A stretch of DNA of 64,000 nucleotides from Anaerolineales bacterium (GCA_034411715.1 DAOUMJ010000209.1:11604-75603); one strand, 5' to 3'; positions 12,866 through 59,490 are shown, counted from the first letter of the stretch. The notes: generated by a model from the letters alone, not told the origin. Program-made: numbers and translations.

Positions 12866-13432
12866 ATGCTGCCAGACCAAATCAAAACATTCCGCGAAAT
12901 GGTCACGTTGAAAGACGGCGTTCACGTCCTGTTGAGACCGATGGTAAAAGAGGATCGCCCGCACCTGGATGAACTCTACCTGTCCGCGGCGGATGAGGAT
13001 GCGCGTTACCTGCGCGATAACGTCAAAGACCCGTCAGTTCTGCAGAAGTGGTGCGACACGCTGAATTACGACAACATCCTCCCCATGCTGGCGATGGTCA
13101 AGGATCGCGCCGTCGGAAGCGGCACGCTTCACTTTCTCAAAGGACCGAAACGCCATATCGGCGAGATTCGAATTTTCCTGACGCGCGAGTTTCGCAAGCG
13201 CGGGCTTGGCACGAAGATCATCCGCATGCTGGTGGATTTCGCGCGCCGGCAGGGACTCTCGCTCCTGCTGGCGGAGGTCACAGCCGACCAGCCGAAAGTG
13301 ATCCACGCCTTCGAGCAAATTGGTTTCAAAGCCCGCTGCACGCTCGAAGATTACTTCATGTTCCCCGACGGCGATTGCTCGGATGTGGTTGTGATGACCA
13401 TGGAGCTGAAGCCGCGCGGGGAGGAGTTCTGA
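12866..13432 (+). CDS. GNAT-family N-acetyltransferase
   Basis: Start at ATG 12866 after AGGAG. Acetyl-CoA-binding-like 'REFRKRGLGTKIIRMLVDFARRQG'. Embedded between acsV and acsE. Confidence 0.75.
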   Translation: MLPDQIKTFREMVTLKDGVHVLLRPMVKEDRPHLDELYLSAADEDARYLRDNVKDPSVLQKWCDTLNYDNILPMLAMVKDRAVGSGTLHFLKGPKRHIGEIRIFLTREFRKRGLGTKIIRMLVDFARRQGLSLLLAEVTADQPKVIHAFEQIGFKARCTLEDYFMFPDGDCSDVVVMTMELKPRGEEF

Positions 13433-13436
13433 GGAG

Positions 13437-13513
13437 GTAAACACGTAGACAGGTACACAGGTAAACACGTATACACGTGACCTGTCTACCTGTGTACTTG
13501 TGTACTTGTATAC
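13437..13513. repeat. GTACACAG-family palindrome, GNAT-acsE spacer
   Basis: GTAAACACGTAGACAGGTACACAGGTAAACACGTATACACGTGAC / CTGTCTACCTGTGTACTTGTGTACTTGTATAC. Confidence 0.85.
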
Positions 13514-13532
13514 CAACCAACTGGAGGCACAA

Positions 13533-14700: not shown

Positions 14701-17700
14701 ATGTCTAACGCCGCACCCTTTCCCGCTCGTCGAAAGCCCGCCGTAACGCTGGTGGTCGGTGGCGGCATCGGGGGAATGCGCGCCGCGCTCGATTTGGCGG
14801 ACGCGGGCTTGAAGGTCTGCCTGGTCGAGCAGACGCCCTACCTCGGCGGCCGCGTCGCGCAATTGGGATTCATGTTTCCCCAACACGACTGCGTCCTCTG
14901 CCGCGGCACACCCGACCACGGATACGGCTGTACGCGTCCCTCGATCTCGCCCGCCTACATCCAGCACAACCAGCATCCCAACATCGAAATCCTGACCAGC
15001 ACGCATATCACCGACGTGGAGGGGGAGGCGGGCGATTTCACCGTCTCCCTGCGCGAGGAGCCGCGTTATGTTGACGTGTCGCGCTGCACCAGTTGCGGCT
15101 TGTGCGCCGAGGCTTGTCCCGTCGAACTGCCAAATGACTATCAACTGGGCATGACCAGGCGGAAGGCGGCCTACAAACTGGCCGCCCGCGCCGCGCCCGA
15201 CGCGTATTGCATTGACCGCGGCCCCTATTGCGACGACTGCCGCAAATGCGTCGAAGCCTGCCCGAGCAAGGCGATCAACCTCGAGGAACAGCCGCGTCTT
15301 TCCTCGGTGGAGGTGGGCGCGATCATCCTCGCGCTCGGCCACCAGATGTACAACGCCGCCGAACTGGAGGAACTGGGCTACGGACGCTACCCAAACGTGG
15401 TGCAGGCTCTCCAGTACGAGCGTCTCGCCTCCCGGTCAGGCCCGACCGAGGGGTTGGTCGTCCGTCCCTCGGACGGCAAGCCGCCCCGATCCATCGCCTG
15501 GCTGCAGTGCATCGGTTCCCGCGACCAGGACAATCCGTTCTGCTCCTCCATTTGCTGCATGTACGCCACCAAGGAGGCGATCCTCGCCAAGCAGCGCCTG
15601 GGCGCAGACGTGCATTGCAGCGTCTTCATCATGGACGAGCGCGCCTTCAACAAGGAATACAGCGCCTATTTTGCCACGGCGCGCAACCGCCACAAGATCC
15701 AGTACAACCGCTGCCGCGTCTCTGCCGTGCGCGAAGATCCCGCCACGCGCCAGCTCATCCTGAACTTTGCCGACCCCAATGGAAAACTGCGCGAGGAAAC
15801 GTTCGACATGGTGGTTCTTGCCACCGGGCTCCAGCCGCCCGAATCGGCCGGGCAACTGGCGGAGATGCTCGACATCGGGCTGAACAAGTACGGCTTTTGC
15901 GAGACCGACAAATTCGCCCCGCTCCAGACCACGCGGCCGGGCGTCTTTGTCTGCGGCGCGTTCTCGTCCCCGAAGGAAATCGCCGAGACCATCATAGACG
16001 CCAGCGGCGCGGCGGCCGAGGTCATGCGCCTGCTCAACGACCGGCTGAACACGTACCCATACAGCCGCGAGTGGCCGTTCCTTTCCACGCAAAACGGATT
16101 CCCTCCCGAACGCGACGTGAGCGAAGAAGAACCGCGCGTGGGCGTCTTCGCCTGCAATTGCGGCGGGACGCTCAACGAGCATCTCGATTTCCCCAGGCTC
16201 ATTCAACAAGCCGGTCTCCTGCCCGGCGTGAAGACGGCAGAGATGGTGGATTTTGCCTGTTTCCCCGAAGGGCTGAGATATCTCCAGGAGCATATCCAAA
16301 ATGACCGGCTCAACCGGGTGGCGATCGCGGCGTGCAGCAACCGCACGCACGAATCGCTCTTCCAGCGGATGATGCGTCAGGCGGGACTCAACCCCTACTT
16401 GCTCGAACTGGTCAACCTGCGCGAGCAATGCGGCCGCGTCCACGAAGGACAACATGACCTTGCGAATCGCAAGGCGCTCGAAATGATCCGCCTCGCGGTG
16501 GGACGCGTCGGACTGGCGCAGCCCGTCTACAAGAAGAAGCATCGCTGCCGACCGAGCGCGCTCGTGATCGGCGGAGGGCTGGCCGGTATGACCGCCAGCC
16601 TGGCGATTGCCGACAGCGGTTACGACGTGGACCTGGTCGAACGCTCCGACCGATTGGGCGGAAACCTGCTCGACCTCTATTACGTCGCCGAGGGCTTCAA
16701 CCCCCAACGCCTGCTGCGCGATCTGGTGAATCGCGTGCGCGCCCACTCGCGCATCACGGTCCACACGCGTACCGAACTGGCCAGCCACAGCGGGCATTTG
16801 GGAAATTACGTCACCGGCCTGCGCGCCGGGCATAACGGGACAAGCGAAAACTTCGAGGTCGAACATGGCGTGACCATCATCGCCACCGGGGCCCAGGAAG
16901 CCCGCCAGCATCCCTATCCGAAGGCGCCCGGCGTGATCACCCAGCACGAGCTGGAAGAGAAGATCATCCACCAGCCGGAAGAGATCGCCGCCCTCAAGGA
17001 CGTGGTGATGATCCAATGCGTGCGGCCCGAAAGCGCGCCCGAATATTGCTCGCGGGTGTGCTGCACCAACGCCCTGAAAAACGCCATCCGCCTCAAACTG
17101 TTCAATCCCGCCTGCAATGTGACCGTCCTGTTCAAGAACATCGTGACCTATGGCTTCCGCGAGGAATACTACACCGAAGCGCGTGAACTGGGCGTGGTCT
17201 TCGTCCGCTACACCGACGCGGAGCCGCCGCAGGTCGCGTTCGATCACGATTACGACCGTCTCAAAGTGCGCGTGCGCGACCTGTCGCTCGATCGCTGGCT
17301 GAACCTCAAGGCGGATCTGATTCCCCTCAGCACGTCCATCGTCCCTTCGGCCGGCGCGGCGGAACTGGCGCGCCTCCTGCGCGTCCCGCTTTCCAGCGAG
17401 GGCTTCTTCGAGGAAGCGCAGATGAAACTGCGACCAATGGACTTCATGCGCGAGGGCATTTTCCTGGCGGGGATGGCGCATTACCCCAAATTCAGCGAGG
17501 AGGCCATCAGCCACGCCCTGGCAGCCGCGGCCCGCGCCGTGACCGTCCTCTCCCAGCGCGATTCGCTCTACCTCGGCGGCGTGGTCGCCCAGGTGGACCC
17601 GGAAAAATGCGTCGGCTGTCTCACCTGCACGCGCACCTGTCCGTTCGGCATTCCCCAGGTGATCCAGGAGGAAGGTCGGACGGGCGTCGGCGGTCTGGGC

Positions 17701-17865
17701 GGCGCGGCGTTCATTGACTCGGCCTTATGCCAGGGCTGCGGAACCTGCACCGGCGAGTGCCCGGCCAATGCCATCCAGTTGGTGCATTACACCGACGAGC
17801 AAATGATGCTGCACGACATCGGCGGACTGGGCGCATGGAGAGTGCCAGTAATCAGTGATCAGTGA
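14701..17865 (+). CDS. hdrA: HdrA-like FAD/FeS oxidoreductase (two HdrA-type modules, 1054 aa)
   Basis: 'VVGGGIGGMRAALDLADAG', 'MFPQHDCVLC', 'LQCIGSRD...CSSICCMYATKEA', a second 'VIGGGLAGMTASLAIADSG', and C-terminal 2x[4Fe-4S] 'CVGCLTCTRTCPFG...CQGCGTCTGECP'. Confidence 0.88.
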   Translation: MSNAAPFPARRKPAVTLVVGGGIGGMRAALDLADAGLKVCLVEQTPYLGGRVAQLGFMFPQHDCVLCRGTPDHGYGCTRPSISPAYIQHNQHPNIEILTSTHITDVEGEAGDFTVSLREEPRYVDVSRCTSCGLCAEACPVELPNDYQLGMTRRKAAYKLAARAAPDAYCIDRGPYCDDCRKCVEACPSKAINLEEQPRLSSVEVGAIILALGHQMYNAAELEELGYGRYPNVVQALQYERLASRSGPTEGLVVRPSDGKPPRSIAWLQCIGSRDQDNPFCSSICCMYATKEAILAKQRLGADVHCSVFIMDERAFNKEYSAYFATARNRHKIQYNRCRVSAVREDPATRQLILNFADPNGKLREETFDMVVLATGLQPPESAGQLAEMLDIGLNKYGFCETDKFAPLQTTRPGVFVCGAFSSPKEIAETIIDASGAAAEVMRLLNDRLNTYPYSREWPFLSTQNGFPPERDVSEEEPRVGVFACNCGGTLNEHLDFPRLIQQAGLLPGVKTAEMVDFACFPEGLRYLQEHIQNDRLNRVAIAACSNRTHESLFQRMMRQAGLNPYLLELVNLREQCGRVHEGQHDLANRKALEMIRLAVGRVGLAQPVYKKKHRCRPSALVIGGGLAGMTASLAIADSGYDVDLVERSDRLGGNLLDLYYVAEGFNPQRLLRDLVNRVRAHSRITVHTRTELASHSGHLGNYVTGLRAGHNGTSENFEVEHGVTIIATGAQEARQHPYPKAPGVITQHELEEKIIHQPEEIAALKDVVMIQCVRPESAPEYCSRVCCTNALKNAIRLKLFNPACNVTVLFKNIVTYGFREEYYTEARELGVVFVRYTDAEPPQVAFDHDYDRLKVRVRDLSLDRWLNLKADLIPLSTSIVPSAGAAELARLLRVPLSSEGFFEEAQMKLRPMDFMREGIFLAGMAHYPKFSEEAISHALAAAARAVTVLSQRDSLYLGGVVAQVDPEKCVGCLTCTRTCPFGIPQVIQEEGRTGVGGLGGAAFIDSALCQGCGTCTGECPANAIQLVHYTDEQMMLHDIGGLGAWRVPVISDQ

Positions 17866-17879: not shown

Positions 17880-18386
17880 ATGACCCAACCAGAAAAAATT
17901 TTCGAACCCGAGATCACCGCGTTTTATTGTATCTACTGCGGTTACATGGCCGCGGACACCGCCGGGGCGTTGCAGGTGCAGTACCCCGCCAATGTCAAAT
18001 TTGTGCGGATGCCCTGCTCCGGCAAGACCGACGTCCGCTACCTGCTGGAGGCCTTCGAGCGCGGCGCGGACGGCGTGTACGTGGTCGCCTGCCCAATCGG
18101 CAACTGTCATCACGTGCGCGGCAACGAACGCGGACGCGCCCGGCTCAATCGGGCAAAGAAGATCCTGGATGAAATCGGCCTGGGCGGGGAACGGTTGGAT
18201 ATGTTCTTCATGTCCGGCAGCCAGGCTCGCGCCTACGCGGCCGCCGCGCGGACGATGACGGATCGCATCCGCAAATTGGGACCGAATCCGTTGAAAGATG
18301 AAAGCGGAAAGATGAAAGATGAAATGAAGCCGCCGGTGGAAGAAGAAGAAGCCGAGTTCCGCGGCAGACGGCAGAAGAAAGGATAA
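17880..18386 (+). CDS. mvhD: MvhD-type (methyl-viologen-reducing hydrogenase delta-like) protein, Cys form, with a repeat-derived C-terminal tail
   Basis: 'ITAFYCIYCGYMAAD...MPCSGKTD...GADGVYVVACPIGNCHH'. The tail 'LKDESGKMKDEMKPPVEEEE' is encoded by GATGAAG-type repeats. Confidence 0.85.
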   Translation: MTQPEKIFEPEITAFYCIYCGYMAADTAGALQVQYPANVKFVRMPCSGKTDVRYLLEAFERGADGVYVVACPIGNCHHVRGNERGRARLNRAKKILDEIGLGGERLDMFFMSGSQARAYAAAARTMTDRIRKLGPNPLKDESGKMKDEMKPPVEEEEAEFRGRRQKKG

Positions 18387-18523
18387 GCAAGAAAGGATGA
18401 AGGCGGAAGGATGAAGGATGAAATGAAAGTCCCCGCAAAAGAAGAAGATGAGAGGATGAAATCGAACGATTCATCCTTCATCCCTTCGACTTCGCTCAGG
18501 GCAAGCCTTCATAATTCATCCTT
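18292..18523. repeat. GATGAAG/GATGAAA heptamer arrays and hairpins spanning the mvhD 3' end, the spacer and the hdrL 5' end
   Basis: GAAAGATGAAAGCGGAAAGATGAAAGATGAAATGAAG; AGGATGAAGGCGGAAGGATGAAGGATGAAATGAAAG; hairpin GGATGAAATCG-AA-CGATTCATCC; then TTCGACTTCGCTCAGGGCAAG. Confidence 0.85.
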
Positions 18524-21500
18524 GCCTGTCGGCGCGGTGATGGTTGTCGGCGGAGGCATCGCGGGCATGCAGGCCTCGCTCGACCTGGCCGAGCAGGGAT
18601 TCAAAGTCTATTTGGTGGAGAAAAATTCCGCCATCGGCGGACACATGGCGCAATTGGATAAGACCTTCCCGACCAACGACTGCGCCATGTGCACCATCTC
18701 GCCTCGCCTGGTAGAAACGGGCCGACATCCGAACATCGAAATCCTCACGAACTCCGAAGTTCTCGACATGACCGGCCAGGCGGGCAATTTCACTGCGACC
18801 ATCGAGCGGCGGCCGCGCTACATTGATACGACCAAATGTATTGCCTGCGGCGATTGCGTCAAGGTCTGCCCGGTGCTTGTGCCGGACACTTTCAACGAAG
18901 GGCTTGCCTCCCGCCGCGCGGCCTACAAACTTTATCCGCAAGCCGTTCCCAATGCCTTCGCAATCGAGAAGAACGGCATCGCCCCATGCCGGGACGCCTG
19001 TCCTGCCCATCAGCGCGCACAGGGATACATCGCGCTGATCCGCGAGGGCCGTTGGGCGGACGCGCTGCGCGTCATCAAAATGGACAATCCCTTCCCCGGC
19101 ATCTGCGGGCGCATCTGCAACCACCGCTGCGAAACGGCCTGCAATCGCGGCGAAGTGGACGAACCGATCAATATCCGCGCCCTCAAACGATTCGTGACCG
19201 ACAAGGTGTATTCCGAGCCGCGCCAACCCGTCGGGCCGGTCGAGATCAAATATCCGGATCAACGCGTCGCCATCATCGGCGCGGGACCGTGCGGATTGAC
19301 CGCCGCGCAAGACATTATCCGACAGGGTTATCCGGTCACGATTTTCGAAGCCATGCCGGTCGCGGGCGGGATGTTACGCCTGGGCGTGCCGGAGTTCCGC
19401 CTGCCGGCCGAGATCATCGAGCGCGAGGTGGCGGACATTGTTGACCTGGGCATCGAGTTGAGACTCAATACGCCCGTGACCAATCTCGACGATATTTTCA
19501 ACGAGGGATTTACTTCGGTGTTGATTTCCGTCGGCGCGCACGAGGGCGTGCGCCTGCCGATCCCCGGCGCGAATTTGGACGGCGTCATAATCAATACTCA
19601 GTTCTTGAAGGATGTGCGTTTGGGAAAATATGAAACAAAAGATGAAAGCGGAAAGCCTGCCCTGAGCGAAGTCGAAGGGATGAAAGAGGAAAGAGGCGAC
19701 GGTTCCGATAATTCATCTTTCATCTCTCATCTTTCATCTTTGGGTAAGAACGTTCTCGTCCTCGGCGGCGGAAACGTGGCGATTGACGTGGCGCGGACAG
19801 CCGTGCGTTTGGGTTGCAAGGTCTCGATGGCTTGCCTGGAAAGCCGCGAACAAATGCCCGCGCACGAATGGGAGATTCAAGCCGCGCTCGACGAAGGCAT
19901 CGCAATTTACAACGACCGTTCTTTCGAGCAAATCTTCAGCGACGAAAACGGGCGCGCTCGCGGCGTGGAATGTATGCAGGTCAGTTCGTTCAGTTTCGAC
20001 GAGATGGGACGGTTGAGCGTCGAGAAAATCCCTGAGTCGAATCACGTCCTCCCGTGCGACACGGTCATTTTCTCGGTCGGGCAGCGCGCAGGTCTGGCGT
20101 TCATCCCCGCCGACGCGGGCGTCGGTCTCACCGAACGCAAGACCATCGCCATCAATCCCAACACCTTTGCCGCCACACGTCCCGGCGTCTTCGCGGCGGG
20201 CGATAGCGTCAGCGGGACGGCCTTTGTCATCGAGGCGGTTGCCAGCGGACACAAAGCGGCGGAATCCATTCTTCGTTATTTGCAAGGCGAGGCGCTGGAA
20301 CGTCCGCCCAAGCCTGAACTGCCGGTGGTCAAACTCACGCGGCAGGAGATTGACGACCGCATCGCGCGCGGCGAGATCAAAAAACAACCGCGCGTCCCAC
20401 TCCCCGAACTGCCCGTTGAACAACGCATCAACAACTTCATCGAAGTCGAAGGCGGCTATGACGACGAATCGGCGCAGCGTGAGGCGGCGCGCTGCCTGGC
20501 CTGCGGCATCTGCTCGGAATGTATGTCCTGCACCTTCGCGTGCGGTGTCAACGCGATTGACCACGATATGGTGGCGCGGCAGGAAGCGCTCAACATCGGC
20601 GCGGTGATCCTCGCGCCGGGCTATCAGGCGTATCACGCGGAACTGTCGGAGGAATTCGGCTACGGACGCTACCCGAACGTGGTCACGTCCCTGCAATTCG
20701 AACGCCTCCTCTCCGCCTCCGGCCCGACGATGGGACACGTCCACCGGCCCTCGGATCATCGCCCGCCGAAGCGGATCGCCTTCCTCCAGTGCATCGGCTC
20801 GCGCGACCAGACTCACGATTACTGCTCGGCGGTGTGCTGTATGTATGCGACGAAGGAAGCGGTCATCGCGAAAGAGCACCAGCCTGGGCTGGACGTTCAC
20901 GTTTTTATGATGGACATGCGCGCCTTCTCGAAAGGCTATTGGGGATATTTCGAGCGCGCCCGCGAGAGATATGGAATCCAATACCATCGTTCGCGCGTCA
21001 GCATGATCCGCGAAGACCCGAATACGCATGATTTGATTCTCAGTTACATGAGTGATCAGTTATCAGTAATCAGTGATCAGTTTGATATGGTCGTACTTTC
21101 CGTCGGGATGGAAATCTCCGAGTCGGTCAGAAATCTTGGGCGGCGATTGGGCGTCGAACTGGACGATTACGGATTCTGCCAGACGGTCCAGTTCAACCCG
21201 CTCGAAACTTCGCGGCCGGGAATCTACGCCGTCGGGCCGTTCCGCGAGCCGAAAGACATTCCCGAATCGGTCGTCGAGGGGAGCGGAGCGGCCGGGGCGG
21301 CCGCGGCCCGCCTCAGTCACGCGCGATTCGCCCTGACCGTCAGCCGCGAATATCCCGAGGAGCGGGACGTCAGCCAGGAGTCGCCGCGCGTCGGCGTCTT
21401 CGTCTGCTCGTGCGGCACGAACATCGGCGGCTTTGTGGACGTGCCAACGGTCTCAGAGTACGCGTCGAAGTTGCCAAACGTGGTTCACGCCGAGTCGAAT

Positions 21501-23162
21501 CTTTATACTTGTTCGCAGGACAGCATCAAGCACATCACCGAGCAGGTGATCGAGCATGGATTGAACCGCGTGGTGGTAGCGAGTTGCACGCCGCTGACGC
21601 ATCAGCCGCTGTTTCAGGATAGCATCCGCATGGCGGGGTTGAACCCGTACCTGTACGAGATGGCGAATATTCGCAATCAGTGTTCGTGGGTGCATTCGAC
21701 GGACAAGGAAGCCGCGACGGCCAAAGCCAAAGACCTGGTGCGCGCGGCGGTGGCGCGCGCCGCGTTGCTCGAAGCGCAGCACACGATTGACGTGCCGGTG
21801 AAAAACGCCGCGCTGATCGTTGGCGGAGGCGTCGCGGGGATGACGGCTGCCCTTTCCTTGGCGGAACAAGGATTCCCGGTGCATCTCGTGGAACGGGAAG
21901 CGGAACTCGGCGGTAACTTGCGATACGTGACTGCCCTCACCCCCGGCCCCTCTCCAGATTACGGGAGAGGGGGGCAAAGAAGCCCGCAAGAAATTTTGCA
22001 AAGCCTGGCGGAAAAAATTCAAGCAAATCCAAATATCGCCCTGCACATGAACAGCGAGGTTGCGTCCTCCGCTGGCTTCATGGGCAATTTCACCAGCACG
22101 CTCAAAGGCCGCGACGGAAGCCGCTGTGAGATCGCGCACGGCGCGACCATCCTCGCGACCGGCGCGCAGGAGTATCGTGGTCCTGAATATGGCTATGGGA
22201 GCGATCCGCGCATTGTGACGCAGCAGGAATTCGAGGCGGTGTTGGCAGGTAAACAGGTAAACATGTACACAGGTACACAGGGCGGCTCATCCCTGTCTGC
22301 CTGTTTACCTGTGTACGTGTCTACCGCCTCACCAGACTCCGTCGTTATGATCCAATGCGTCGGGCCGGCAGAAAAATTCTGTGCGCGCATTTGCTGTGCG
22401 GTGGCGCTGAAGAACGCGATTCGACTCAAGGAAGTCAATCCAAAAGCGGAAGTTGTGATTCTGTATCGCGACATCCGCACTTATGGTTTCAAGGAACGGT
22501 TGTATACAGAGGCGCGCGAAAAGGGCGTGGTTTTCATTCGCTATGAGCCTGAACGCAAACCGGAAGTCGCAATTACCAATTACCAATTACCAATTACCGT
22601 TCAAGTTTGGGAGCCTGTTTTACGAAAGGAACTGACCCTCCATCCCGACCTGCTCGTGCTTTCGATGCCGGTTGTACCCAGAGAGGATGCTCACGAAACG
22701 GCGGCCGCGTTTAAAGTCCCGCGCGACGCGGACGGGTTCTTCCTCGAAGCGCACGTCAAACTGCGCCCGGTGGATTTCGCCTCGGACGGCGCTTTCATGG
22801 CTGGGATGGCGCATTATCCGAAATTGCTTGAAGAAACCATGATCCAGGCGCAGGCCGCGGCGGCGCGGGCGGCGCGCGTTCTCAGCCGCGAAACGCTAAC
22901 CGCGGGCGGGCGCGTCGCAGTGGTGGATCAAACTCAATGCACCGGCTGTCTGACCTGCGTCCGCATCTGTCCGTTTGGCGTGCCGAAGATTCGCATTGAC
23001 ATGACCGGCGTCGGCGGAATTGTTGGCGCGGCTTATGTCGAAGCCGCCGTCTGTCAAGGCTGTGGCATTTGCGCGGCGGAATGTCCCGCGCGCGCGATCC
23101 AGTTAATGCACTACACCGACGCGCAGATGACGGCGAAGGTTGGCGCGTTGATACAAGGATGA
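18411..23162 (+). CDS. Giant HdrA / GltD(NfnB)-like / HdrA fusion flavoprotein (HdrL-like, 1583 aa)
   Basis: HdrA N-terminus 'VVGGGIAGMQASLDLAEQG..TNDCAMC'. GltD-like block 'CPAHQRAQGYIALIREGRWADALRVIKMDNPFPGICGRICNHRCETAC...RVAIIGAGPCGLTAAQD'. HdrA core 'LQCIGSRDQTHDYCSAVCCMYATKEA'. Second FAD site 'IVGGGVAGMTAALSLAEQG'. C-terminal ferredoxin 'CTGCLTCVRICPFG..CQGCGICAAECP'. Repeat elements lie in frame inside it. The exact start is uncertain because it falls inside a repeat. Confidence 0.85.
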   Translation: MKDEMKVPAKEEDERMKSNDSSFIPSTSLRASLHNSSLPVGAVMVVGGGIAGMQASLDLAEQGFKVYLVEKNSAIGGHMAQLDKTFPTNDCAMCTISPRLVETGRHPNIEILTNSEVLDMTGQAGNFTATIERRPRYIDTTKCIACGDCVKVCPVLVPDTFNEGLASRRAAYKLYPQAVPNAFAIEKNGIAPCRDACPAHQRAQGYIALIREGRWADALRVIKMDNPFPGICGRICNHRCETACNRGEVDEPINIRALKRFVTDKVYSEPRQPVGPVEIKYPDQRVAIIGAGPCGLTAAQDIIRQGYPVTIFEAMPVAGGMLRLGVPEFRLPAEIIEREVADIVDLGIELRLNTPVTNLDDIFNEGFTSVLISVGAHEGVRLPIPGANLDGVIINTQFLKDVRLGKYETKDESGKPALSEVEGMKEERGDGSDNSSFISHLSSLGKNVLVLGGGNVAIDVARTAVRLGCKVSMACLESREQMPAHEWEIQAALDEGIAIYNDRSFEQIFSDENGRARGVECMQVSSFSFDEMGRLSVEKIPESNHVLPCDTVIFSVGQRAGLAFIPADAGVGLTERKTIAINPNTFAATRPGVFAAGDSVSGTAFVIEAVASGHKAAESILRYLQGEALERPPKPELPVVKLTRQEIDDRIARGEIKKQPRVPLPELPVEQRINNFIEVEGGYDDESAQREAARCLACGICSECMSCTFACGVNAIDHDMVARQEALNIGAVILAPGYQAYHAELSEEFGYGRYPNVVTSLQFERLLSASGPTMGHVHRPSDHRPPKRIAFLQCIGSRDQTHDYCSAVCCMYATKEAVIAKEHQPGLDVHVFMMDMRAFSKGYWGYFERARERYGIQYHRSRVSMIREDPNTHDLILSYMSDQLSVISDQFDMVVLSVGMEISESVRNLGRRLGVELDDYGFCQTVQFNPLETSRPGIYAVGPFREPKDIPESVVEGSGAAGAAAARLSHARFALTVSREYPEERDVSQESPRVGVFVCSCGTNIGGFVDVPTVSEYASKLPNVVHAESNLYTCSQDSIKHITEQVIEHGLNRVVVASCTPLTHQPLFQDSIRMAGLNPYLYEMANIRNQCSWVHSTDKEAATAKAKDLVRAAVARAALLEAQHTIDVPVKNAALIVGGGVAGMTAALSLAEQGFPVHLVEREAELGGNLRYVTALTPGPSPDYGRGGQRSPQEILQSLAEKIQANPNIALHMNSEVASSAGFMGNFTSTLKGRDGSRCEIAHGATILATGAQEYRGPEYGYGSDPRIVTQQEFEAVLAGKQVNMYTGTQGGSSLSACLPVYVSTASPDSVVMIQCVGPAEKFCARICCAVALKNAIRLKEVNPKAEVVILYRDIRTYGFKERLYTEAREKGVVFIRYEPERKPEVAITNYQLPITVQVWEPVLRKELTLHPDLLVLSMPVVPREDAHETAAAFKVPRDADGFFLEAHVKLRPVDFASDGAFMAGMAHYPKLLEETMIQAQAAAARAARVLSRETLTAGGRVAVVDQTQCTGCLTCVRICPFGVPKIRIDMTGVGGIVGAAYVEAAVCQGCGICAAECPARAIQLMHYTDAQMTAKVGALIQG
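19628..19742. repeat. GATGAAG-family palindromic element in frame inside the GltD-like part of hdrL
   Basis: Left AAAGATGAAAGCGGAAAG. Core CCTGAGCGAAGTCGAAGGGATGAAAGAGG. Right TTCATCTTTCATCTCTCATCTTTCATCTTT. Translates to 'YETKDESGKPALSEVEGMKEERGDGSDNSSFISHLSSL'. Confidence 0.85.
21947..21972. repeat. CCCCTCTCC...GGAGAGGGG hairpin in frame in hdrL
   Basis: CCCCTCTCC [AGATTACG] GGAGAGGGG. Translates within 'TPGPSPDYGRGGQ', which is extra relative to the HdrA paralogue. Confidence 0.8.
22246..22325. repeat. GTACACAG-family palindrome in frame inside the hdrL-like CDS
   Basis: CAGGTAAACAGGTAAACATGTACACAGGTACACAGGG [CGGCTCAT] CCCTGTCTGCCTGTTTACCTGTGTACGTGTCTACC. Translates to 'AGKQVNMYTGTQGGSSLSACLPVYVST', a segment with no counterpart in the HdrA paralogue (14701..17865). 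Confidence 0.85.
22571..22598. repeat. (AATTACC)x4 heptamer tract inside hdrL
   Basis: AATTACCAATTACCAATTACCAATTACC. Related tracts at 36587-36610 (in res) and 59451-59478 (upstream of fdhA). Confidence 0.9.
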
Positions 23163-23187
23163 AGGATGAAAGATGAAGGATGAAATT
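23157..23187. repeat. GATGAAG heptamer array containing the hdrL stop codon
   Basis: GGATGAAGGATGAAAGATGAAGGATGAAATT. The TGA at 23160-23162 is part of the first unit. Confidence 0.85.
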
Positions 23188-23232
23188 GCGTGGAACGTGT
23201 TGCGTCCCTTCGACTTCACTCAGGACAAGATT

Positions 23233-23274
23233 GTGTGTTCCGTGTTTACCTGTGCACTTGTGTACCTGTCTACC
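23233..23274. repeat. GTACACAG-family half element (reverse-orientation arm only), upstream of the Sec-mvhD
   Basis: GTGTGTTCCGTGTTTACCTGTGCACTTGTGTACCTGTCTACC. Confidence 0.75.
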
Positions 23275-23285
23275 TGACGCGACCA

Positions 23286-23711: not shown

Positions 23712-23720
23712 AGGATGAAA
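23691..23720. repeat. GATGAAG heptamer array (left flank of the four-helix-bundle gene) containing the Sec-mvhD stop
   Basis: AGGATGAATGATGAAGGATGAAGGATGAAA. Confidence 0.85.
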
Positions 23721-23760
23721 AACGTAATACGGAAATCGCGCAAAGATATGGAGACGATCA

Positions 23761-29223: not shown

Positions 29224-29264
29224 GTGTCAGGTTTCAGGTTTCAAGTGTCAGGTTTCAAGGTGTC
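29224..29264. repeat. Reverse-complement copy of the CCTGAAA/CCTGACA heptamer array (between the two ABC genes)
   Basis: GTGTCAGGTTTCAGGTTTCAAGTGTCAGGTTTCAAGGTGTC. Confidence 0.8.
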
Positions 29265-31111
29265 GCCGTCCTGAGCGGACTCCCCTCTCCCCGAATGGGG
29301 AGAGGGGTTGGGAAGGGCGGAGTGACCAGCGGATAGGAAGCGGATAATCGGATGGAAGGCGCGCTATCCGCTTCTTCGGACGGTTTGTATTGCATCAACT
29401 GCAAATCGTGAATCTCCCGGTACAGCCCGCCCTGGGCCAGCAGTTCGGCGTGGCGGCCGCGCTGGACGATGCGCCCGTCGTCCATCACCAGGATCAGGTC
29501 GGCGCGGCGGACGGTGGCGAGGCGGTGGGCGATGACGAAGGTGGTGCGGCCTTCCATCAGGCGGTCGAGCGCTTCCTGGATCAACTTTTCGGTCTGCGTG
29601 TCCACGCTGGAGGTGGAGTCGTCCAAAATCAAAATGCGCGGGTCCATCAGCAGGGCGCGGGCGATGGCCACGCGCTGGCGCTGTCCGCCGCTCAGGGTCA
29701 CGCCGCGCTCGCCGACCAGGGTGTCGTACCCTTTTGGAAATCCCACGATGAAATCGTGCGCCTGCGCGGCCCGCGCCGCGGCGACGATCTCCTCCTCGCC
29801 GGCGTCGGGGCGGCCATAGGCGACGTTGGCGCGGATCGTATCGGAGAACAACAGCGAGGTTTGCAGGACGATGCCGATCTGCTTTCGCAACGAGAGCAGG
29901 TCCACCGTCCGCACGTCGCGGCCGTCCACCAGCAGCGCGCCCTCGGTCACGTCGTAGAAGCGCGGGATGAGATTGACGAGCGAGGTCTTGCCCGAGCCCG
30001 TCCCCCCGATCAGCGCGACGAGTTGGTTCGGCTCCACGGCCAGGTGGATGCCGGTCAGCGCGACCGACTTCTCGTCCTGATAGCGAAGCGAGACGCCGCG
30101 GAATTCGACGCGGCCGCGCAGGGCGGGAAGAACCTCCGCTTCGCGCGGCGACCGAATGGCGGGTTCCGTTTCGAGAATCTCCAGCGCACGCTGGGCGCCC
30201 GCGCCCGCCTCCCCCGCCGCGTTGACCAGCCAGGCGATCTGCTGGACGGGCGCGGAAAGCATCAGCCAGTAGGCGTTGAAGGCCACGATCCCGCCGACGG
30301 TCAGCCTGCCTTCGAGAACCATCCGCCCGCCGAAGATCAGGATGAGGATTGTGCCGAGGGCGATCAGCAGGTTGGTGGTGGGCATGACCTTGGACCATTC
30401 GCCGATGATGCGGACGCGCGAGTCGAAGTACGTGCGGTTGGCCTGCTCGAAGCGTCCGATCTCGTAGGGTTCGCGGGCGAAGGCGCGCACCACCTGCACG
30501 CCGCTGACGCTCTCCTGCAAGCGGGTCGAGAGGTCGCCGAGGGCCGTGTCCACCCTGTAGAACAAGCGCGTGACGCGCCCGCCGAAGTCGGCGGTGATCA
30601 TCACCATCGGGATCAGCGGCAGGAGCGCGATGGCCGCCAGGCGGGAGTCCGCCGAGAACAGGGCGGCCGTCACGCCGACGGCGATGAAGGCCAGTTGGAC
30701 GATCTCGATGAGGCTGCCGCCGGCGAAGTTCTGGATGGCGCGCACGTCTTCGATGCAGCGGGTGATCAGTTGTCCCGTCTGGGCGTGATCGTGGTACGTG
30801 AAGGGCAGATGCTGGATGCGGTCGTACATCGCGTTGCGCAGGTCATAGCCGATGCGCGCGGCCACCCACTCGGAGAAATAGCGCTGGAAGAAATTGAGCA
30901 GGGCGGTCGTTAATCCCAGTCCCAGCAGGATCAGGGCGGCGCGCGCGAGGTAATCCGTCTCGCCCTGAAGCAGTCCCTGATCCACCACGTCCTTGAGGAT
31001 GCGCGGGACGATCAGCGAAAGGCCGGTGATGACCAGCAGGATGAGCAGGTTGAGCAGGAGTTTGCCGAGGTAGGGTTTGAGGTAGGAGCGGAGTTTGAAA
31101 AGATAGTTCAT
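29255..31111 (-). CDS. ABC exporter, fused permease/ATPase, with a repeat-encoded C-terminal tail
   Basis: Walker A 'GGTGSGKTS', 'LSGGQRQR', 'ILILDDSTS'. The last ~40 aa ('...PPFPTPLPIRGEGSPLRTATP') run through the hairpin repeat at 29282-29307. Confidence 0.88.
   Translation of the reverse strand: MNYLFKLRSYLKPYLGKLLLNLLILLVITGLSLIVPRILKDVVDQGLLQGETDYLARAALILLGLGLTTALLNFFQRYFSEWVAARIGYDLRNAMYDRIQHLPFTYHDHAQTGQLITRCIEDVRAIQNFAGGSLIEIVQLAFIAVGVTAALFSADSRLAAIALLPLIPMVMITADFGGRVTRLFYRVDTALGDLSTRLQESVSGVQVVRAFAREPYEIGRFEQANRTYFDSRVRIIGEWSKVMPTTNLLIALGTILILIFGGRMVLEGRLTVGGIVAFNAYWLMLSAPVQQIAWLVNAAGEAGAGAQRALEILETEPAIRSPREAEVLPALRGRVEFRGVSLRYQDEKSVALTGIHLAVEPNQLVALIGGTGSGKTSLVNLIPRFYDVTEGALLVDGRDVRTVDLLSLRKQIGIVLQTSLLFSDTIRANVAYGRPDAGEEEIVAAARAAQAHDFIVGFPKGYDTLVGERGVTLSGGQRQRVAIARALLMDPRILILDDSTSSVDTQTEKLIQEALDRLMEGRTTFVIAHRLATVRRADLILVMDDGRIVQRGRHAELLAQGGLYREIHDLQLMQYKPSEEADSAPSIRLSASYPLVTPPFPTPLPIRGEGSPLRTATP
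29282..29307. repeat. CCCCTCTCCCC...GGGGAGAGGGG hairpin in the 3' tail of the ABC exporter gene
   Basis: 11-bp stem with loop GAAT. Same family as 21947-21972. Confidence 0.8.
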
Positions 31112-35656: not shown

Positions 35657-36221
35657 AGCCACTCGAATTACATTGCTCGTCACGCAAACGCTGGAACGGA
35701 TCGGGATTCCCTACGCGGTGGGCGGCTCGCTGGCGAGTTCCCTGCACGGCGTCATGCGCTCCACGCTGGATGTGGACATTGTGGCAGATATGAAGGTGGA
35801 ACACATCCCCGCCCTGGTTGCCGCGCTCTCGAAGGAATTTTATGCCGATGACGAAATGATGAAAGACGCCATCGCGCATCACAGCAGTTTCAACCTCATC
35901 CATTACGAAACCGCCTTCAAGGTGGATATTTTCATCCGCAAGTTGCGCGCCTTCGATCAAATGCAGTTGGAACGGCGCAGGCCATCGGTCATTGCCACCG
36001 AACCCGAAGAAAGCGTGTACGTTGTCAGCCCCGAAGATATCATCCTCTCCAAACTGGAATGGTATCGCATGGGCGGGGAAGTGTCCGACCGCCAGTGGCG
36101 CGATATCCTGGGTGTGCTGAAAGCCCGCGCGGGCGAACTCGACCTGGCCTACCTGCGAAAATGGGCGGGCGAACTGAAGGTCAGTGATTTGATGGAACGC
36201 GCTTTGAACGAAGCGGCATGA
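35646..36221 (+). CDS. Nucleotidyltransferase-fold protein (MNT/AbiEii-like)
   Basis: NTase signature 'AVGGSLASSLHGVMRSTLDVDIV' (G-S ... D-x-D). ATGA overlap with the res start. Confidence 0.65.
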   Translation: MQGEATRITLLVTQTLERIGIPYAVGGSLASSLHGVMRSTLDVDIVADMKVEHIPALVAALSKEFYADDEMMKDAIAHHSSFNLIHYETAFKVDIFIRKLRAFDQMQLERRRPSVIATEPEESVYVVSPEDIILSKLEWYRMGGEVSDRQWRDILGVLKARAGELDLAYLRKWAGELKVSDLMERALNEAA

Positions 36222-39200: not shown

Positions 39201-39256
39201 ATTGTTGGTACGACCATCCAAAGCAGGTTTTGAAGAAGTTGATTGCACATAATTAA
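36218..39256 (+). CDS. res: Type III-like restriction subunit: SF2 helicase plus C-terminal PD-(D/E)XK nuclease (1012 aa)
   Basis: 'LWDYQ', Walker A 'MATGSGKT', 'LLDEAHKG', 'SATF', 'QSVGRGVRI'. C-terminal 'FHPDFIFW...ILFVDPKG'. In-frame hairpin repeat at 36389-36475 and a heptamer tract at 36587-36610. Confidence 0.85.
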   Translation: MKKLQTLLNDIDFESMPAAWTEFDLARFSRSKKLWDYQQTAVENALKALWKYYSFDSVIASEAKQSRVSAGIASGGQKTPERPRNDAIRKEAFHQWYADNQIELPELSFGKKRDNAALLSPYYPITNNQLPYSHFINRMGFWMATGSGKTIVIVKLIEILWALIGRKEIPDNDILVLTHREDLIQQLRGHVDEYNAASGSLFIRLKELREYADIKRGFPSLLGHQEITVFYYRSDNLSDEQKERIVDFRNYDNNGRWYILLDEAHKGDKEDSKRQHIYSILSRDGFLFNFSATFTDDRDKLTTAAEFNLSSFIEAGYGKHISILKQENSAFRKDSGDFTDEEKQKIVLQSLLMMTYINKTREGLLEATGTELYHRPLLLALVNSVNTDDADLKIFFAQLERIAKGELGREAFSRAKSDLWNELKAEPEWLYEDSRFIPDQSLFQSLTLKDILKTVFNSENHSEIEVLTRPSNDKELAFKLKTSAAPFALIRIGNTAEWLKDVLAGYQFVQGFEDESFFQRINEEDSEINLLMGSRSFYEGWDSNRPNVITFINIGGADAKKFILQSVGRGVRIEPIPNKRKRLASLDTAKEVDHSLFTQARPFLPAVETLFIFGTNRAALESVFKELDNEKEKEEGVEIALEVNPAAVDGRPLLIPTYRYSNQPLIEQRAPSKFDIPQEELDYLNKYLKYLGDERLLLAHHDLSPQQIGYVQKSVADPDTYFDTSGGRKFGNINILLPRLVRYLDIIPCELEGFKPLEAEINHYKHIRVFLKDIEELRRKIKAVQQFSDPEERKTFLKQRLATGEINIDTYTATIEGIARTSAEETFTPPQGATLKIKNIAAHYYMPLLLSEDEKIDYIRHVIHVESEVFFIKQLEDYLQQDDNYFKSFDWWMFSRADETLDKVVIPYYDPTQNKMRDFHPDFIFWLKRWNDYFILFVDPKGMQNTGYEYKVDGYKDIFWENGKMKSIPYRGLNVCVSLAMFNPKASQSPQGYNDCWYDHPKQVLKKLIAHN
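36389..36475. repeat. Same GTCATTGCGAG...CTCGCAATGAC element in frame in res (87 nt = 29 codons)
   Basis: GTCATTGCGAG-CGAAGCGAAGCAATCTC...GGGGATTGCTTCGGG-CGGGCAAAAAACGCCCG-...CTCGCAATGAC. Translates to 'VIASEAKQSRVSAGIASGGQKTPERPRND'. A partial left arm also occurs at ~56618-56632. Confidence 0.85.
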
Positions 39257-59440: not shown

Positions 59441-59490
59441 CGCCAGACACAATTACCAATCACTAATTACCAATTACCCCCGAGGTGATC

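What the first reader, a model, noticed from the sequence alone, without database searches (positions are those of the whole stretch)
19628..22325. Palindromic repeat elements inserted in frame in hdrL, mod, res and the acsB intein
Seen: elements identical in type to the intergenic hairpins lie inside ORFs without breaking them.
- hdrL carries a GATGAAG-type palindrome (19628-19742, 'YETKDESGKPALSEVEGMKEERGDGSDNSSFISHLSSL') between the GltD 'FLKDVRLGK' and 'GKNVLVLGGGNVAID'.
- hdrL also carries a CCCCTCTCC hairpin (21947-21972).
- hdrL also carries an 80-nt GTACACAG palindrome (22246-22325, 'AGKQVNMYTGTQGGSSLSACLPVYVST').
- All three hdrL segments are extra relative to the paralogue at 14701..17865.
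- mod (32839-32961, 123 nt) and res (36389-36475, 87 nt) each carry the GTCATTGCGAG...CTCGCAATGAC element. Both lengths are exact multiples of 3.
- The acsB intein has hairpins at 535-580.

Established: in-frame palindromic elements are documented in Rickettsia (the Rickettsia palindromic elements, RPEs).

Inference: a comparable but multi-family phenomenon operates here. It tolerates or exploits surface-loop insertions in core metabolic and R-M proteins.
Basis: partly seen in the sequence, partly recalled or inferred. Interest (0 to 1): 0.75.

Follow-up and report, generated by a model that had tools for sequence, protein, structure and literature searches.

The report
In-frame hairpin repeats in Anaerolineae genes
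Several families of small hairpin-forming DNA repeats that litter this Chloroflexota (Anaerolineae) genome also sit in frame inside working genes, always in flexible protein loops. Close relatives carry different repeats, or none, in the same loops, so this resembles the Rickettsia palindromic elements but with more families and faster turnover.

Summary
Every listed element exists at its coordinates, lies in an unbroken reading frame, and belongs to a repeat family enriched far above chance in the window.

Orthologue alignments show that each segment is extra sequence in a short variable loop. This holds for hdrL, the type III mod and res genes, and the AcsB intein. AlphaFold models put the three hdrL inserts in low-confidence coil between confident secondary-structure elements.

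The phenomenon is wider than reported:
- The window holds further in-frame repeat runs in hdrL, res, a selenocysteine fdhA, and the tails of FlpD and a 618-aa ORF of unscanned function.
- The same loops carry different repeat families in close relatives. One strain pair is 99.4% identical over 10.6 kb, and its only indel is a 111-nt hairpin in hdrL.

No target-site duplication, transposase, RAYT gene or Rfam family was found. Inserts often replace 12-24 nt of the loop.

Best reading: dispersed REP/REPIN-like palindromes and hairpins with arms of tandem 7-8-nt units are filtered by selection to in-frame, loop-located copies. They then turn over by slippage, deletion and recombination.

This is a new variant of a known kind (Rickettsia palindromic elements, intragenic REPs). 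Translation of the segments is inferred, not shown.

The parts
18388..18528 (+). GATGAAG-family palindrome with the inverted core CCCTTCGACTTCGCTCAGGG, spanning the FlpD stop, the FlpD-hdrL junction and the annotated N-terminus of hdrL (MKDEMK...SSFIPSTSLRASLHNSSL).
   Evidence: Inverted repeats I7 and I17. Fold -46.8 kcal/mol, z -3.4. Conserved at this junction in 8 of 10 close relatives. Residues 1-36 model as pLDDT<50 coil. The true start codon may lie downstream, because orthologues start at ...PVGAVMVVGGG.
19628..19742 (+). hdrL site 1: in-frame GATGAAA-arm hairpin with a nested 20-nt core (PALSEVEG).
   Evidence: The modal loop is 13 aa in 40 orthologues and 40 aa here. pLDDT is below 50 at aa 405-410 and 415-442. 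Only 1 of 6 frames is free of stop codons.
21051..21081 (+). hdrL GTGATCA/GTTATCA heptamer run encoding SDQLSVISDQ, with no length change relative to orthologues.
   Evidence: Tandem repeat finder: period 7, 4.4 copies. Ortholog alignment. Modelled as a structured beta-turn.
21938..21985 (+). hdrL site 2: CCTCACCCC + CCCCTCTCC hairpin element (TALTPGPSPDYGRGGQ). The hairpin proper is 21947-21972.
   Evidence: Absent from the paralogue and from L081, L001, L002, L003, L005 and L020. Present in L080, L086 and L007, and longer in L004. pLDDT<50 coil at aa 1176-1188.
22241..22325 (+). hdrL site 3: hairpin with arms of GTACACAG/GTAAACAG 8-nt units (KQVNMYTGTQGGSSLSACLPVYVST).
   Evidence: (z -5.9). 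The modal loop is 12 aa in 43 orthologues. pLDDT<50 at aa 1282-1305.
22570..22598 (+). hdrL CAATTAC heptamer run (ITNYQLPIT).
   Evidence: Tandem repeat finder: 4.1 copies at 100% identity. Variable in orthologues, which carry SDQSSVIS and other runs at this site.
32838..32962 (+). mod: in-frame inverted doublet of the GTCATTGCGAG...GAAGCAATC unit (VIARSGATKQSP...LLDPRND).
   Evidence: z -4.8. Most of 60 mod orthologues have no insert here, and others carry different hairpin families.
36388..36476 (+). res: in-frame inverted doublet of the same family (VIASEAKQSR...PERPRND).
   Evidence: z -5.9. Ortholog alignment. DNA comparison with L082 and L083.
36582..36610 (+). res ATTACCA heptamer run (YYPITNNQLPY). 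This is a second variable site, where L083 carries a CCCCTCTCC hairpin.
523..615 (+). AcsB intein: two small hairpins (535-580) plus an 18-nt tandem repeat (576-615), encoding TETDSEVSRLRNIQRLESLDSEFKLDSEFKL.
   Evidence: z -5.1. The closest AcsB-intein homologues P0448, P0455 and P0452 lack about 29 aa here. The same hairpin type occurs at 31245-31299 and in res of L082.
60372..60409 (+). fdhA: AATCGTA and AAATCCA heptamer runs in frame (KPIVNRKSEIQNPKW).
61664..61695 (+). fdhA: AATTCAG heptamer run in frame (QFRIQNSEFRID).
   Evidence: Tandem repeat finder: 4.6 copies at 100% identity..
18292..18324 (+). FlpD C-terminal tail built from TGAAAGA/GATGAAA heptamers (KDESGKMKDEMK).
29282..29307 (-). 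Second CCCCTCTCC hairpin, in the C-terminal tail (PTPLPIRGEGSP) of the 618-aa ORF 29255..31111(-). This ORF was not scanned against any family library.
13422..13525 (.). Representative intergenic copy of the 8-nt-unit (GTACACAG) hairpin family. Others are at 2510-2556, 10782-10847, 12772-12858 and 23234-23276.
23155..23184 (+). GATGAAG array overlapping the hdrL stop codon, followed by an inverted core copy (23206-23225) and an 8-nt-unit array.

Best explanation
The window comes from an Anaerolineae (Chloroflexota) genome loaded with several families of short dispersed repeats that can form hairpins. They fall into four types:
- REP/REPIN-like units and inverted doublets (GTCATTGCGAG...GAAGCAATC).
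- Small G/C-block hairpins (CCTCACCCC and CCCCTCTCC).
- A 20-24-nt core (CCCTGAGCGAAGTCGAAGGG).
- Hairpins whose arms are tandem 7- or 8-nt units (GATGAAG, GTACACAG, GTGATCA, CAATTAC, AATTCAG).

Most copies lie between genes or at gene ends.

Shown here: copies also lie inside genes, and those copies keep the reading frame, lack stop codons and sit in short variable loops.

Inferred:
1. New copies arise inside genes at a high rate, and selection removes all but the frame-preserving, loop-located ones.
2. The surviving copies are translated as flexible, mostly hydrophilic loop extensions of HdrL, FdhA, Mod, Res and the AcsB intein.

After fixation the elements keep changing. Tandem units expand and contract in frame-preserving steps, hairpins are deleted, smaller elements nest in larger ones, and whole loop alleles are swapped between related strains by homologous recombination. 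As a result the same loop carries different families in close relatives.

The enzyme or process that disperses the repeats is unknown. No transposase was found, and the junctions are not clean cut-and-paste junctions.
For: **Elements are real and enriched.**

**They are in frame in intact ORFs.**. An independent contig encodes the same 1583-aa HdrL with one substitution.

**They are extra relative to orthologues.**
- Distant HdrL orthologues have loops of 12-13 aa at sites 1 and 3 and no insert at site 2.
- Most mod and res orthologues lack the segments.
- The closest AcsB inteins lack about 29 aa.

**Loop location.** The hdrL inserts and N-terminus model as pLDDT<50 coil flanked by confident helices or strands.

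**Selection filter.**
- Strong hairpins occur at 3.0 per 10 kb outside large ORFs and 0.51 per 10 kb inside them, across 1.27 Mb of window plus related loci. Both exceed shuffles: 102 against 2 outside, 48 against 14 inside.
- Genic GTCATTGCGAG doublets measure 66, 123 and 87 nt. Intergenic ones measure 86, 93, 83, 131, 78 and 92 nt.

**Dispersal.**
- Inserted sequence shares 11-mers with other places in the same locus in 12 of 14 expanded loops at site 1 and 15 of 22 at site 3.
- The GTCATTGCGAG unit occurs in more than 120 IMG/VR contigs, as singles, inverted doublets and tandem copies.

**Turnover.**
- L084 and L085 are 99.4% identical over 10.6 kb, and the only indel is a 111-nt site 3 hairpin.
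- The 24-nt RQVDRETS unit is present in 2, 3 or 4 copies within one 90%-identity cluster.
- L086 and L001 are 91.5% identical. They hold a GATGAAG hairpin and a GACCCTAAAGGTCTC hairpin in exactly the same slot, and site 2 is filled in one and empty in the other.

**Precedent.** Intragenic in-frame REPs and RPEs are documented in many bacteria (PMC3733652). A heptamer-encoded LSVINYQLS lies in a surface loop of an RNA polymerase beta-prime-like protein (PMC4679880).
Against: - No mobilising enzyme was found. None of the 24 window ORFs scanned against Pfam or NCBIfam is a RAYT, transposase or reverse transcriptase, and most of the roughly 47 ORFs were not scanned.
- Recurrent neighbours of the GTCATTGCGAG unit in 120 viral loci looked, by eye from their sequences, like phage structural proteins. 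None resembled a transposase, but none was scanned against a family library.
- No target-site duplications were seen. Filled and empty alleles differ by replacement of 12-24 nt, not by a clean insertion.
- Substitutions cluster next to the 111-nt indel. This fits allele exchange better than a fresh transposition.
- Some variants at the same sites are tandem runs without a reverse arm (L080, L003, L004 and L020 at site 3). Not every insert is a palindrome.
- Translation is not demonstrated.
- All data are from metagenome-assembled genomes.
- Surface exposure was inferred from low pLDDT and coil, not computed. Model quality is moderate (mean pLDDT 69 and 59).
Confidence: 0.7

Rival explanations
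1. Hairpin-slot cassette exchange. The hairpins are ORF-less relatives of small cassettes in which a gene sits between inverted heptamer arrays, as in 23S rRNA intervening sequences. A structure-directed process inserts or swaps elements specifically at pre-existing hairpins. That would explain why different families occupy exactly the same slot.
For: - A TIGR02436 four-helix-bundle gene (the Pfam 23S_rRNA_IVP family) at 23761-24132 sits between inverted GATGAAG arrays. The whole roughly 480-nt unit is absent from L080 and L004.
- All five loci that carry this gene have the same flanking arrays.
- A TIGR04256 GxxExxY protein gene (34830-35282; its L083 counterpart hits Pfam PDDEXK_3) sits between CACGAATG/ATTCGTG arrays between mod and res. 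It is present in L083 and absent in L082.
- Two unrelated hairpin families have coincident boundaries at hdrL site 1.
- The 20-nt core is nested inside heptamer arrays of two different families: GATGAAA/TTCATCC at the FlpD-hdrL junction and hdrL site 1, and GTGATCA-type at hdrL site 3 of L005 and L021.
Against: - The five four-helix-bundle copies probably descend from one orthologous insertion, so there are effectively two independent cassettes.
- No enzyme has been linked to the hairpins.
- Selection for permissive loops, together with recombination, can explain slot sharing without any targeting.
- No literature support was found.
Confidence: 0.12
2. Local origin without mobility. The segments arise where they are, by replication slippage (tandem 7-8-mers) and template switching (inverted copies) in mutable loops. 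Similarity between loci then reflects shared mutational bias.
For: - Copy-number variation of the 24-nt unit within one 90%-identity cluster.
- Tandem-only variants at site 3.
- Heptamer patches that replace native residues without changing length, at the SDQ and NYQ sites and at res YYPIT.
Against: - Identical 12-20-nt motifs recur at many unlinked places far above chance.
- The GTCATTGCGAG unit is shared by more than 120 unrelated viral contigs.
- Unrelated families occupy one slot in relatives that are 91.5% identical.

Slippage explains later expansion, not origin.
Confidence: 0.08
3. Selected RNA or DNA structure. The hairpins are kept in the mRNA or DNA for a function, such as RNase III processing, ribosome pausing at domain boundaries, occlusion of the ribosome-binding site, or phase variation through units not divisible by 3. 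The encoded peptide would be a by-product.
For: - A hairpin of some kind persists at hdrL site 1 and at the FlpD-hdrL junction in most close relatives.
- GATGAAG arrays contain AGGA, ATG and TGA, and sit at gene starts and stops.
- GTCATTGCGAG units sit just upstream of ribosome-binding sites in phage contigs.
Against: - Most orthologues lack any structure at these sites.
- Hairpins are replaced by non-palindromic runs or deleted between near-identical strains.
- No Rfam family matches.
- Site 1 and site 2 folds do not exceed shuffles.
Confidence: 0.07
4. Artefact. The inserts are assembly errors that place repeats in metagenome contigs.
For: All sequences are MAG or metagenome contigs, and repeats are hard to assemble.
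Against: - Reading frames stay open through every element.
- An independent contig gives the same protein with one substitution.
- The same elements at the same sites recur in independent assemblies from other samples: L080, L081 and L086.
Confidence: 0.02

Closest known systems
Rickettsia palindromic elements (RPE-1 to RPE-8; Ogata et al. 2000, recalled from memory; discussed in PMC3733652)
   Same: They are dispersed palindromic repeats found between genes and also in frame inside conserved protein genes. They are absent from orthologues, lie in regions that tolerate extra residues, and belong to several families in one genome.
   Different: - The lineage differs: Chloroflexota, not Rickettsia.
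- Many elements here have arms made of tandem 7-8-nt units, and their lengths vary by slippage.
- The same loop holds different families in close relatives.
- There is presence/absence variation at 99.4% identity.
- Sequence relatedness to RPE consensus sequences was not tested.
REP / REPIN elements (GTAG- and CGTC-tagged REPs, Di Nocera et al. 2013, PMC3733652; REPINs, Bertels and Rainey 2011, PMC3116915)
   Same: - The GTCATTGCGAG...GAAGCAATC unit is 24-38 nt and occurs as singletons and as inverted doublets that fold into one long hairpin.
- It is mostly intercistronic and sometimes intragenic and in frame.
- PMC3733652 also reports different REPs at about the same site of recB in two Xanthomonas species.
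   Different: - No RAYT gene was found.
- The CGTC tag is not constant: the base before the unit is T in 69 of 124 units and C in 50.
- The family is spread over many unrelated viral and metagenomic contigs rather than being specific to one genome.
Cyanobacterial STRR and Beggiatoaceae TAACTGA heptamer repeats (MacGregor 2015, PMC4679880)
   Same: They are tandem heptamers, abundant near gene starts and ends and occasionally inside ORFs in the stop-free orientation. One example encodes LSVINYQLS in a surface loop of an RNA polymerase beta-prime-like protein. The window encodes the near-identical peptides SDQLSVISDQ and ITNYQLPIT.
   Different: Here the arrays are usually paired with a complementary array to form hairpins. 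They include 8-nt units, and they are embedded in core Wood-Ljungdahl enzymes at several sites per protein.
Bacterial MITEs that extend ORFs (for example the Coxiella MITEs of PMC5896051; review PMC10969869)
   Same: They are short non-autonomous elements with terminal inverted repeats that can add residues to proteins.
   Different: No target-site duplication and no cognate insertion sequence were found here. Many elements are much shorter than typical MITEs (26-90 nt).

Membership tests
Rickettsia palindromic elements (RPE) | Dispersed multi-copy palindromic repeat able to fold as a hairpin | tested here: met
   Four families are enriched over shuffles, and four of the six claimed folds have z of -4.8 or lower. 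The FlpD-hdrL junction palindrome, which was not among the six, has z -3.4.
Rickettsia palindromic elements (RPE) | In-frame copies inside conserved protein genes, absent from orthologues | tested here: met
Rickettsia palindromic elements (RPE) | Insert located at the protein surface without disturbing the fold | tested here: inconclusive
   The inserts are pLDDT<50 coil between confident secondary-structure elements. Solvent exposure was not computed, and model confidence is moderate.
Rickettsia palindromic elements (RPE) | Sequence homology to RPE consensus sequences; Rickettsia lineage | not tested
   No RPE sequences were available. The organism is an Anaerolineae/Chloroflexota MAG, so it is not filed as an RPE.
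REP / REPIN | Imperfect palindromic unit of 20-40 nt | tested here: met
   The GTCATTGCGAG...GAAGCAATC units are mostly 24-38 nt, with modes at 26 and 32.
REP / REPIN | Inverted doublets that form one long hairpin (REPIN) | tested here: met
   The mod and res elements. Plus/minus pairs 20-30 nt apart in many viral loci.
REP / REPIN | Conserved GTAG or CGTC tetranucleotide at one end | tested here: inconclusive
   Both window copies begin with CGTC. Across 124 units the preceding base is T in 69 and C in 50.
REP / REPIN | Cognate RAYT (IS200/IS605-type Y1 transposase) gene flanked by the repeats | tested here: inconclusive
   None among the 24 ORFs scanned in the window. None among recurrent neighbours in 120 viral loci, judged by eye only. 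Only 64 kb of this genome was available, and most window ORFs were not scanned.
MITE | Terminal inverted repeats | tested here: met
   The 11-12-nt termini GTCATTGCGAG/CTCGCAATGAC.
MITE | Target-site duplication flanking the element | tested here: not met
   No duplication at any filled-against-empty comparison. Instead 12-24 nt of the loop is replaced.
Tandem heptamer repeats (STRR / TAACTGA type) | Tandem 7-nt units, mainly intergenic and close to gene ends | tested here: met
   The tandem repeat finder lists many arrays of period 7 or 8. Their positions are at gene starts and stops.
Self-splicing intron or intein (segments removed after transcription or translation) | Intron RNA family match, or intein splicing/endonuclease domains, in the segment | tested here: not met
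   No Rfam match in the window. Pfam finds no intein domains in HdrL, Mod or Res. The segments are 9-41 aa.

The most novel reading that the evidence does not exclude
The hairpins define exchangeable 'slots'. A structure-directed process inserts and swaps hairpin elements at pre-existing hairpins, even inside essential genes. It may be linked to the small genes found nested between inverted heptamer arrays: the TIGR02436 four-helix-bundle gene (Pfam 23S_rRNA_IVP family, which as I recall also includes the DGR accessory protein Avd) and the GxxExxY gene. The in-frame elements would then be ORF-less relatives of rRNA-intervening-sequence-like cassettes. The process would be an undescribed mode of DNA mobility operating across Anaerolineae, and perhaps in the many phage and metagenome contigs that carry the GTCATTGCGAG unit.
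Probability: 0.12. Interest if true: 0.8.

Novelty: new variant of a known kind. Interest (0 to 1): 0.6.

Why it matters
- **Scope.** In-frame colonisation of proteins by palindromic repeats is not a curiosity of Rickettsia or a few Proteobacteria. It operates on a large scale in a free-living, environmentally abundant lineage, in the central Wood-Ljungdahl and electron-bifurcation enzymes (HdrL, FdhA, the AcsB intein) and in horizontally mobile restriction-modification genes.
- **Natural map of permissive sites.** The fast turnover at fixed loops shows where these large enzymes tolerate insertions.
- **Annotation.** The elements are a practical warning for MAG annotation. They can lead to false starts, spurious peptides such as VIARSEATKQS or PALSEVEG, and inflated protein-family diversity.
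- **A route to the mechanism.** Strain pairs that are 99% identical and differ by one element could reveal how such repeats move. For the transposase-less CGTC-type REPs this is still unknown (PMC3733652).

Tried and rejected
- **Hairpin detection.** A gapless-seed census was too strict for arms with bulges or repeat register shifts. A sliding 100-nt minimum-free-energy scan did not separate real from shuffled sequence in this GC-rich DNA. A blastn self-comparison used scoring that was too harsh and found almost nothing. A banded hairpin alignment replaced them.
- **Rfam.** No family reached its gathering score in the window.
- **Literature.** Searching for the repeat sequences and their typical peptides returned only unrelated primer matches. 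Searching TIGR02436 and GxxExxY returned nothing relevant.
- **Mobilising enzyme.** None was found in the 24 window ORFs scanned. Guilt by association around 124 units in 120 viral loci gave only families that looked like phage structural proteins, judged by eye without a family scan.
- **Intron or intein removal** of the segments was considered and rejected. There are no matching domains or RNA families.
- **A diversity-generating retroelement origin** for the loop variability was considered and rejected. Lengths and whole sequence families differ, not just adenine-templated positions. No reverse transcriptase was seen among the 24 window ORFs scanned.
- **The paralogue comparison for site 1** is uninformative, because the paralogue lacks that module.
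Full report
**Context.** The window has 56% G+C. Its HdrL, Mod and Res proteins have their best matches in metagenome-assembled Chloroflexota, mostly labelled Anaerolineae or Anaerolineales.

It encodes:
- a Wood-Ljungdahl and electron-bifurcation cluster: AcsB with a LAGLIDADG intein, an HdrA-like paralogue at 14701..17865, FlpD, and the 1583-aa HdrA-GltD fusion 'HdrL' at 18411..23162;
- a type III restriction-modification pair: mod at 31951..34656 and res at 36218..39256.

| Element | Coordinates | Fold z-score |
|---|---|---|
| hdrL site 1 | 19628-19742 | -1.35 |
| hdrL site 2 | 21947-21972 | -1.27 |
| hdrL site 3 | 22241-22325 | -5.9 |
| mod | 32838-32962 | -4.8 |
| res | 36388-36476 | -5.9 |
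| AcsB intein hairpins | 535-580 | -5.1 |

Sites 1 and 2 do not exceed shuffles of the same segment, because a purine block followed by a pyrimidine block pairs in any order. Their identity as repeat copies rests on sequence:

| Motif | Observed | Expected by shuffle |
|---|---|---|
| 20-nt core CCCTGAGCGAAGTCGAAGGG | 4 | 0.02 |
| CCCCTCTCC-N-GGAGAGGGG hairpin | 2 | 0 |
| GGTACACAGGTA, up to 2 mismatches | 40 | 1.2 |
| GATGAAGGATGAA, up to 2 mismatches | 21 | 1.7 |

Against the paralogue, site 2 is a 10-aa insert and site 3 a 20-aa insert. Site 1 cannot be compared that way, because the paralogue lacks the GltD-like module.

**Orthologues of HdrL.** I aligned 70 HdrL homologues and read the DNA of 79 species-representative loci plus five closer contigs.

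- Orthologues at 70-75% identity have short loops: YGPGGDAPPLG at site 1, no insert at site 2, and ARLAAGDDLPGS at site 3.
- Loops at least 6 aa longer than the mode occur in 14 of 40 orthologues at site 1 and 22 of 43 at site 3.
- Many of these expanded loops show hairpin or tandem 7-8-nt signals.
- 11-mers shared with other parts of the same locus occur in 12 of 14 (site 1), 15 of 22 (site 3), 11 of 16 (SDQ) and 3 of 7 (NYQ) expanded loops.

**Mod, Res and the intein.** The same holds for Mod. The loop after ...ITLDK is empty in most of 60 orthologues. In others it carries GTCATTGCGAG-type, CCCCTCTCC-type or GAAGTCT-type peptides, including in a protein labelled Thermodesulfobacteriota. Res behaves likewise at two loops. 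The closest AcsB inteins lack about 29 aa where the window has its hairpins and 18-nt repeat.

**Structure.** AlphaFold2 models were built from the ortholog alignments. The C-terminal model has mean pLDDT 69 and the N-terminal model 59.

- Site 1 (aa 405-442), site 2 (aa 1176-1188), site 3 (aa 1282-1305) and the repeat-derived N-terminus (aa 1-36) fall in pLDDT<50 coil between confident helices and strands.
- The two heptamer patches that do not change length (SDQLSVISDQ and NYQLPIT) fall in structured beta-turns.
- This fits loop insertion. Surface exposure itself was not computed.

**The repeat landscape.** The tandem repeat finder lists dozens of arrays of period 7 or 8. A banded hairpin scan finds 30 hairpin clusters in the window, against 5-8 in shuffles. 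Most are intergenic or at gene ends.

In-frame repeat runs beyond those reported:
- two in fdhA (60372-60409 and 61664-61695);
- the FlpD C-terminal tail (18292-18324);
- the C-terminal tail of the 618-aa ORF 29255..31111(-), which I did not scan against any family library (29282-29307);
- a run in res (36582-36610).

Over 1.27 Mb of window plus related loci, strong hairpins occur at 3.0 per 10 kb outside large ORFs and 0.51 per 10 kb inside. Both exceed shuffles: 102 against 2 outside, 48 against 14 inside. The loci were chosen for hdrL, so the genic count is biased toward that gene.

Genic GTCATTGCGAG doublets are 66, 123 and 87 nt long. Intergenic ones are 86, 93, 83, 131, 78 and 92 nt. The numbers are small, but they run in the direction expected from a frame filter.

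**Dynamics.** Within clusters at 90% identity or above, HdrL varies in length only at these sites or at the termini, apart from one single-residue indel near aa 566.

- The 24-nt RQVDRETS unit is present in 2, 3 or 4 copies.
- L084 and L085 are 99.4% identical over 10.6 kb. Their only indel is a 111-nt site 3 hairpin, and several substitutions cluster next to it.
- L086 and L001 are 91.5% identical. They carry a GATGAAG hairpin and a GACCCTAAAGGTCTC hairpin between the same flanking codons at site 1. A 54-nt CCCCTCTCC element replaces 24 nt at site 2, and the content at the SDQ site also differs.
- At site 3, ten close relatives carry at least five unrelated families. The pattern does not follow overall similarity.
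- An independent contig encodes the window's HdrL with one substitution and every element intact. That argues against assembly error.

**Mechanistic clues.**
- I found no target-site duplication. Filled alleles replace 12-24 nt of the loop rather than simply adding sequence.
- The 20-nt core is nested inside heptamer arrays of two different families: GATGAAA/TTCATCC at the FlpD-hdrL junction and hdrL site 1, and GTGATCA-type at hdrL site 3 of L005 and L021.
- The mod and res elements are inverted doublets of a 24-38-nt unit. That unit is present in more than 120 IMG/VR contigs as singles, doublets and tandem copies. It often sits just upstream of a ribosome-binding site, and once lies in frame in a portal-like ORF.
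- None of the 24 window ORFs I scanned is a transposase, RAYT or reverse transcriptase. None stood out among recurrent neighbours of the unit, though I judged those by eye only.
- No Rfam family matches.
- Two small genes sit between inverted heptamer arrays, like the ORFs of 23S rRNA intervening sequences. One is a TIGR02436 four-helix-bundle gene at 23761-24132, between GATGAAG arrays. The other is a TIGR04256 GxxExxY gene at 34830-35282, between CACGAATG arrays. Each is present or absent among relatives.

**Interpretation.** Shown:
- several dispersed repeat families exist;
- some copies lie in frame in variable loops;
- they are gained, lost, resized and exchanged quickly.

Inferred:
- the copies are translated;
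- selection for frame, absence of stop codons and loop location is what restricts them to a few sites per protein;
- slippage, hairpin deletion and homologous recombination produce the turnover.

Unknown: how new copies are made.

The rivals are a hairpin-targeted cassette exchange, purely local slippage and template switching, selected RNA structure, and artefact. They are weighed in their own sections. None is excluded except artefact, which is very unlikely.

**Comparison with what is known.** In-frame palindromic repeats are established for RPEs in Rickettsia. GTAG- and CGTC-tagged REPs occur inside ORFs in many bacteria, including two different REPs at about the same recB site in two Xanthomonas species (PMC3733652). 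Heptamer repeats inside ORFs, encoding LSVINYQLS in a surface loop, are reported for Beggiatoaceae (PMC4679880).

What differs here:
- the lineage;
- the number of co-resident families;
- hairpins whose arms are tandem 7-8-nt units;
- several occupied loops per protein in core enzymes;
- documented slot sharing and strain-level turnover.

I found no paper describing these families. The library does not hold most subscription journals.

**Verdict.** This is a new variant of a known kind, of moderate to fairly high interest. Its main value is the fast turnover at fixed loops and the open question of what moves these elements.

Noticed in passing
window 23286-23700 (TGA at 23481-23483): The small FlpD/MvhD-like gene after hdrL has an in-frame TGA at codon 66 (VMTAG-TGA-LPGDCHYLEG). 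The same TGA is present in L080. It is probably selenocysteine at a Cys position, and gene callers truncate the protein to 65 aa.
   Followed up: partly
window 59485-62298 (TGA at 60607-60609): The two ORFs 59485..60609 and 60622..62298 are in the same frame and together form a formate dehydrogenase alpha subunit. They are joined by an in-frame TGA in the motif DHCARL-TGA-HSSTV, so this is probably a selenocysteine FdhA.
   Followed up: partly
window 23690-24175: A roughly 480-nt unit is absent from L080 and L004. It holds a TIGR02436 four-helix-bundle gene (Pfam 23S_rRNA_IVP family, 23761-24132) between inverted GATGAAG heptamer arrays. All five loci with this gene have the same flanking arrays, though they probably share one orthologous insertion.
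   Followed up: partly
window 34656-35363: A TIGR04256 GxxExxY protein gene (34830-35282; its L083 counterpart hits Pfam PDDEXK_3) lies between mod and res, flanked by CACGAATG/ATTCGTG arrays. It is present in L083 and absent in L082. The same arrays recur at 54326-54460.
   Followed up: partly
window 8301-8372 and 58386-58439: A further REPIN-like doublet family occurs in opposite orientations at the two sites: AGTACCGC-GCAAGATTTATCTTGC...GCAACATGAATGTTGC-GCGGTACT.
   Followed up: no
window 14479-14599 and 59327-59443: Another hairpin family is built on GACGTTAGAGAACGTC / GACGCTAGAGAGCGTC units. A related copy follows hdrL in L004.
   Followed up: no
It is often directly upstream of a ribosome-binding site. 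L132 has four tandem copies at 33-nt spacing, and L122 has a copy in frame in a portal-like ORF.
   Followed up: partly
window 2577-7783 and 54591-56583: These genes have much lower third-position G+C (0.36-0.46, against 0.7-0.85 for neighbours). One is a 1405-aa protein with a PLD-like domain and a beta-helix. They are probably recently acquired DNA.
   Followed up: no
window 31114-31186: The longest tandem array in the window has nine copies of the 8-nt unit GTTGGGTA. It is intergenic, next to the GGAGTCCAACGTCTCCAGACGTTGG hairpin at 31245-31299.
   Followed up: no
window 18393-18422, 23155-23184, 23690-23719: GATGAAG arrays contain AGGA (Shine-Dalgarno-like), ATG and TGA. They coincide with the hdrL start, the hdrL stop and the end of the FlpD-like gene. 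In most relatives the FlpD stop and the hdrL start both lie inside the array.
   Followed up: no
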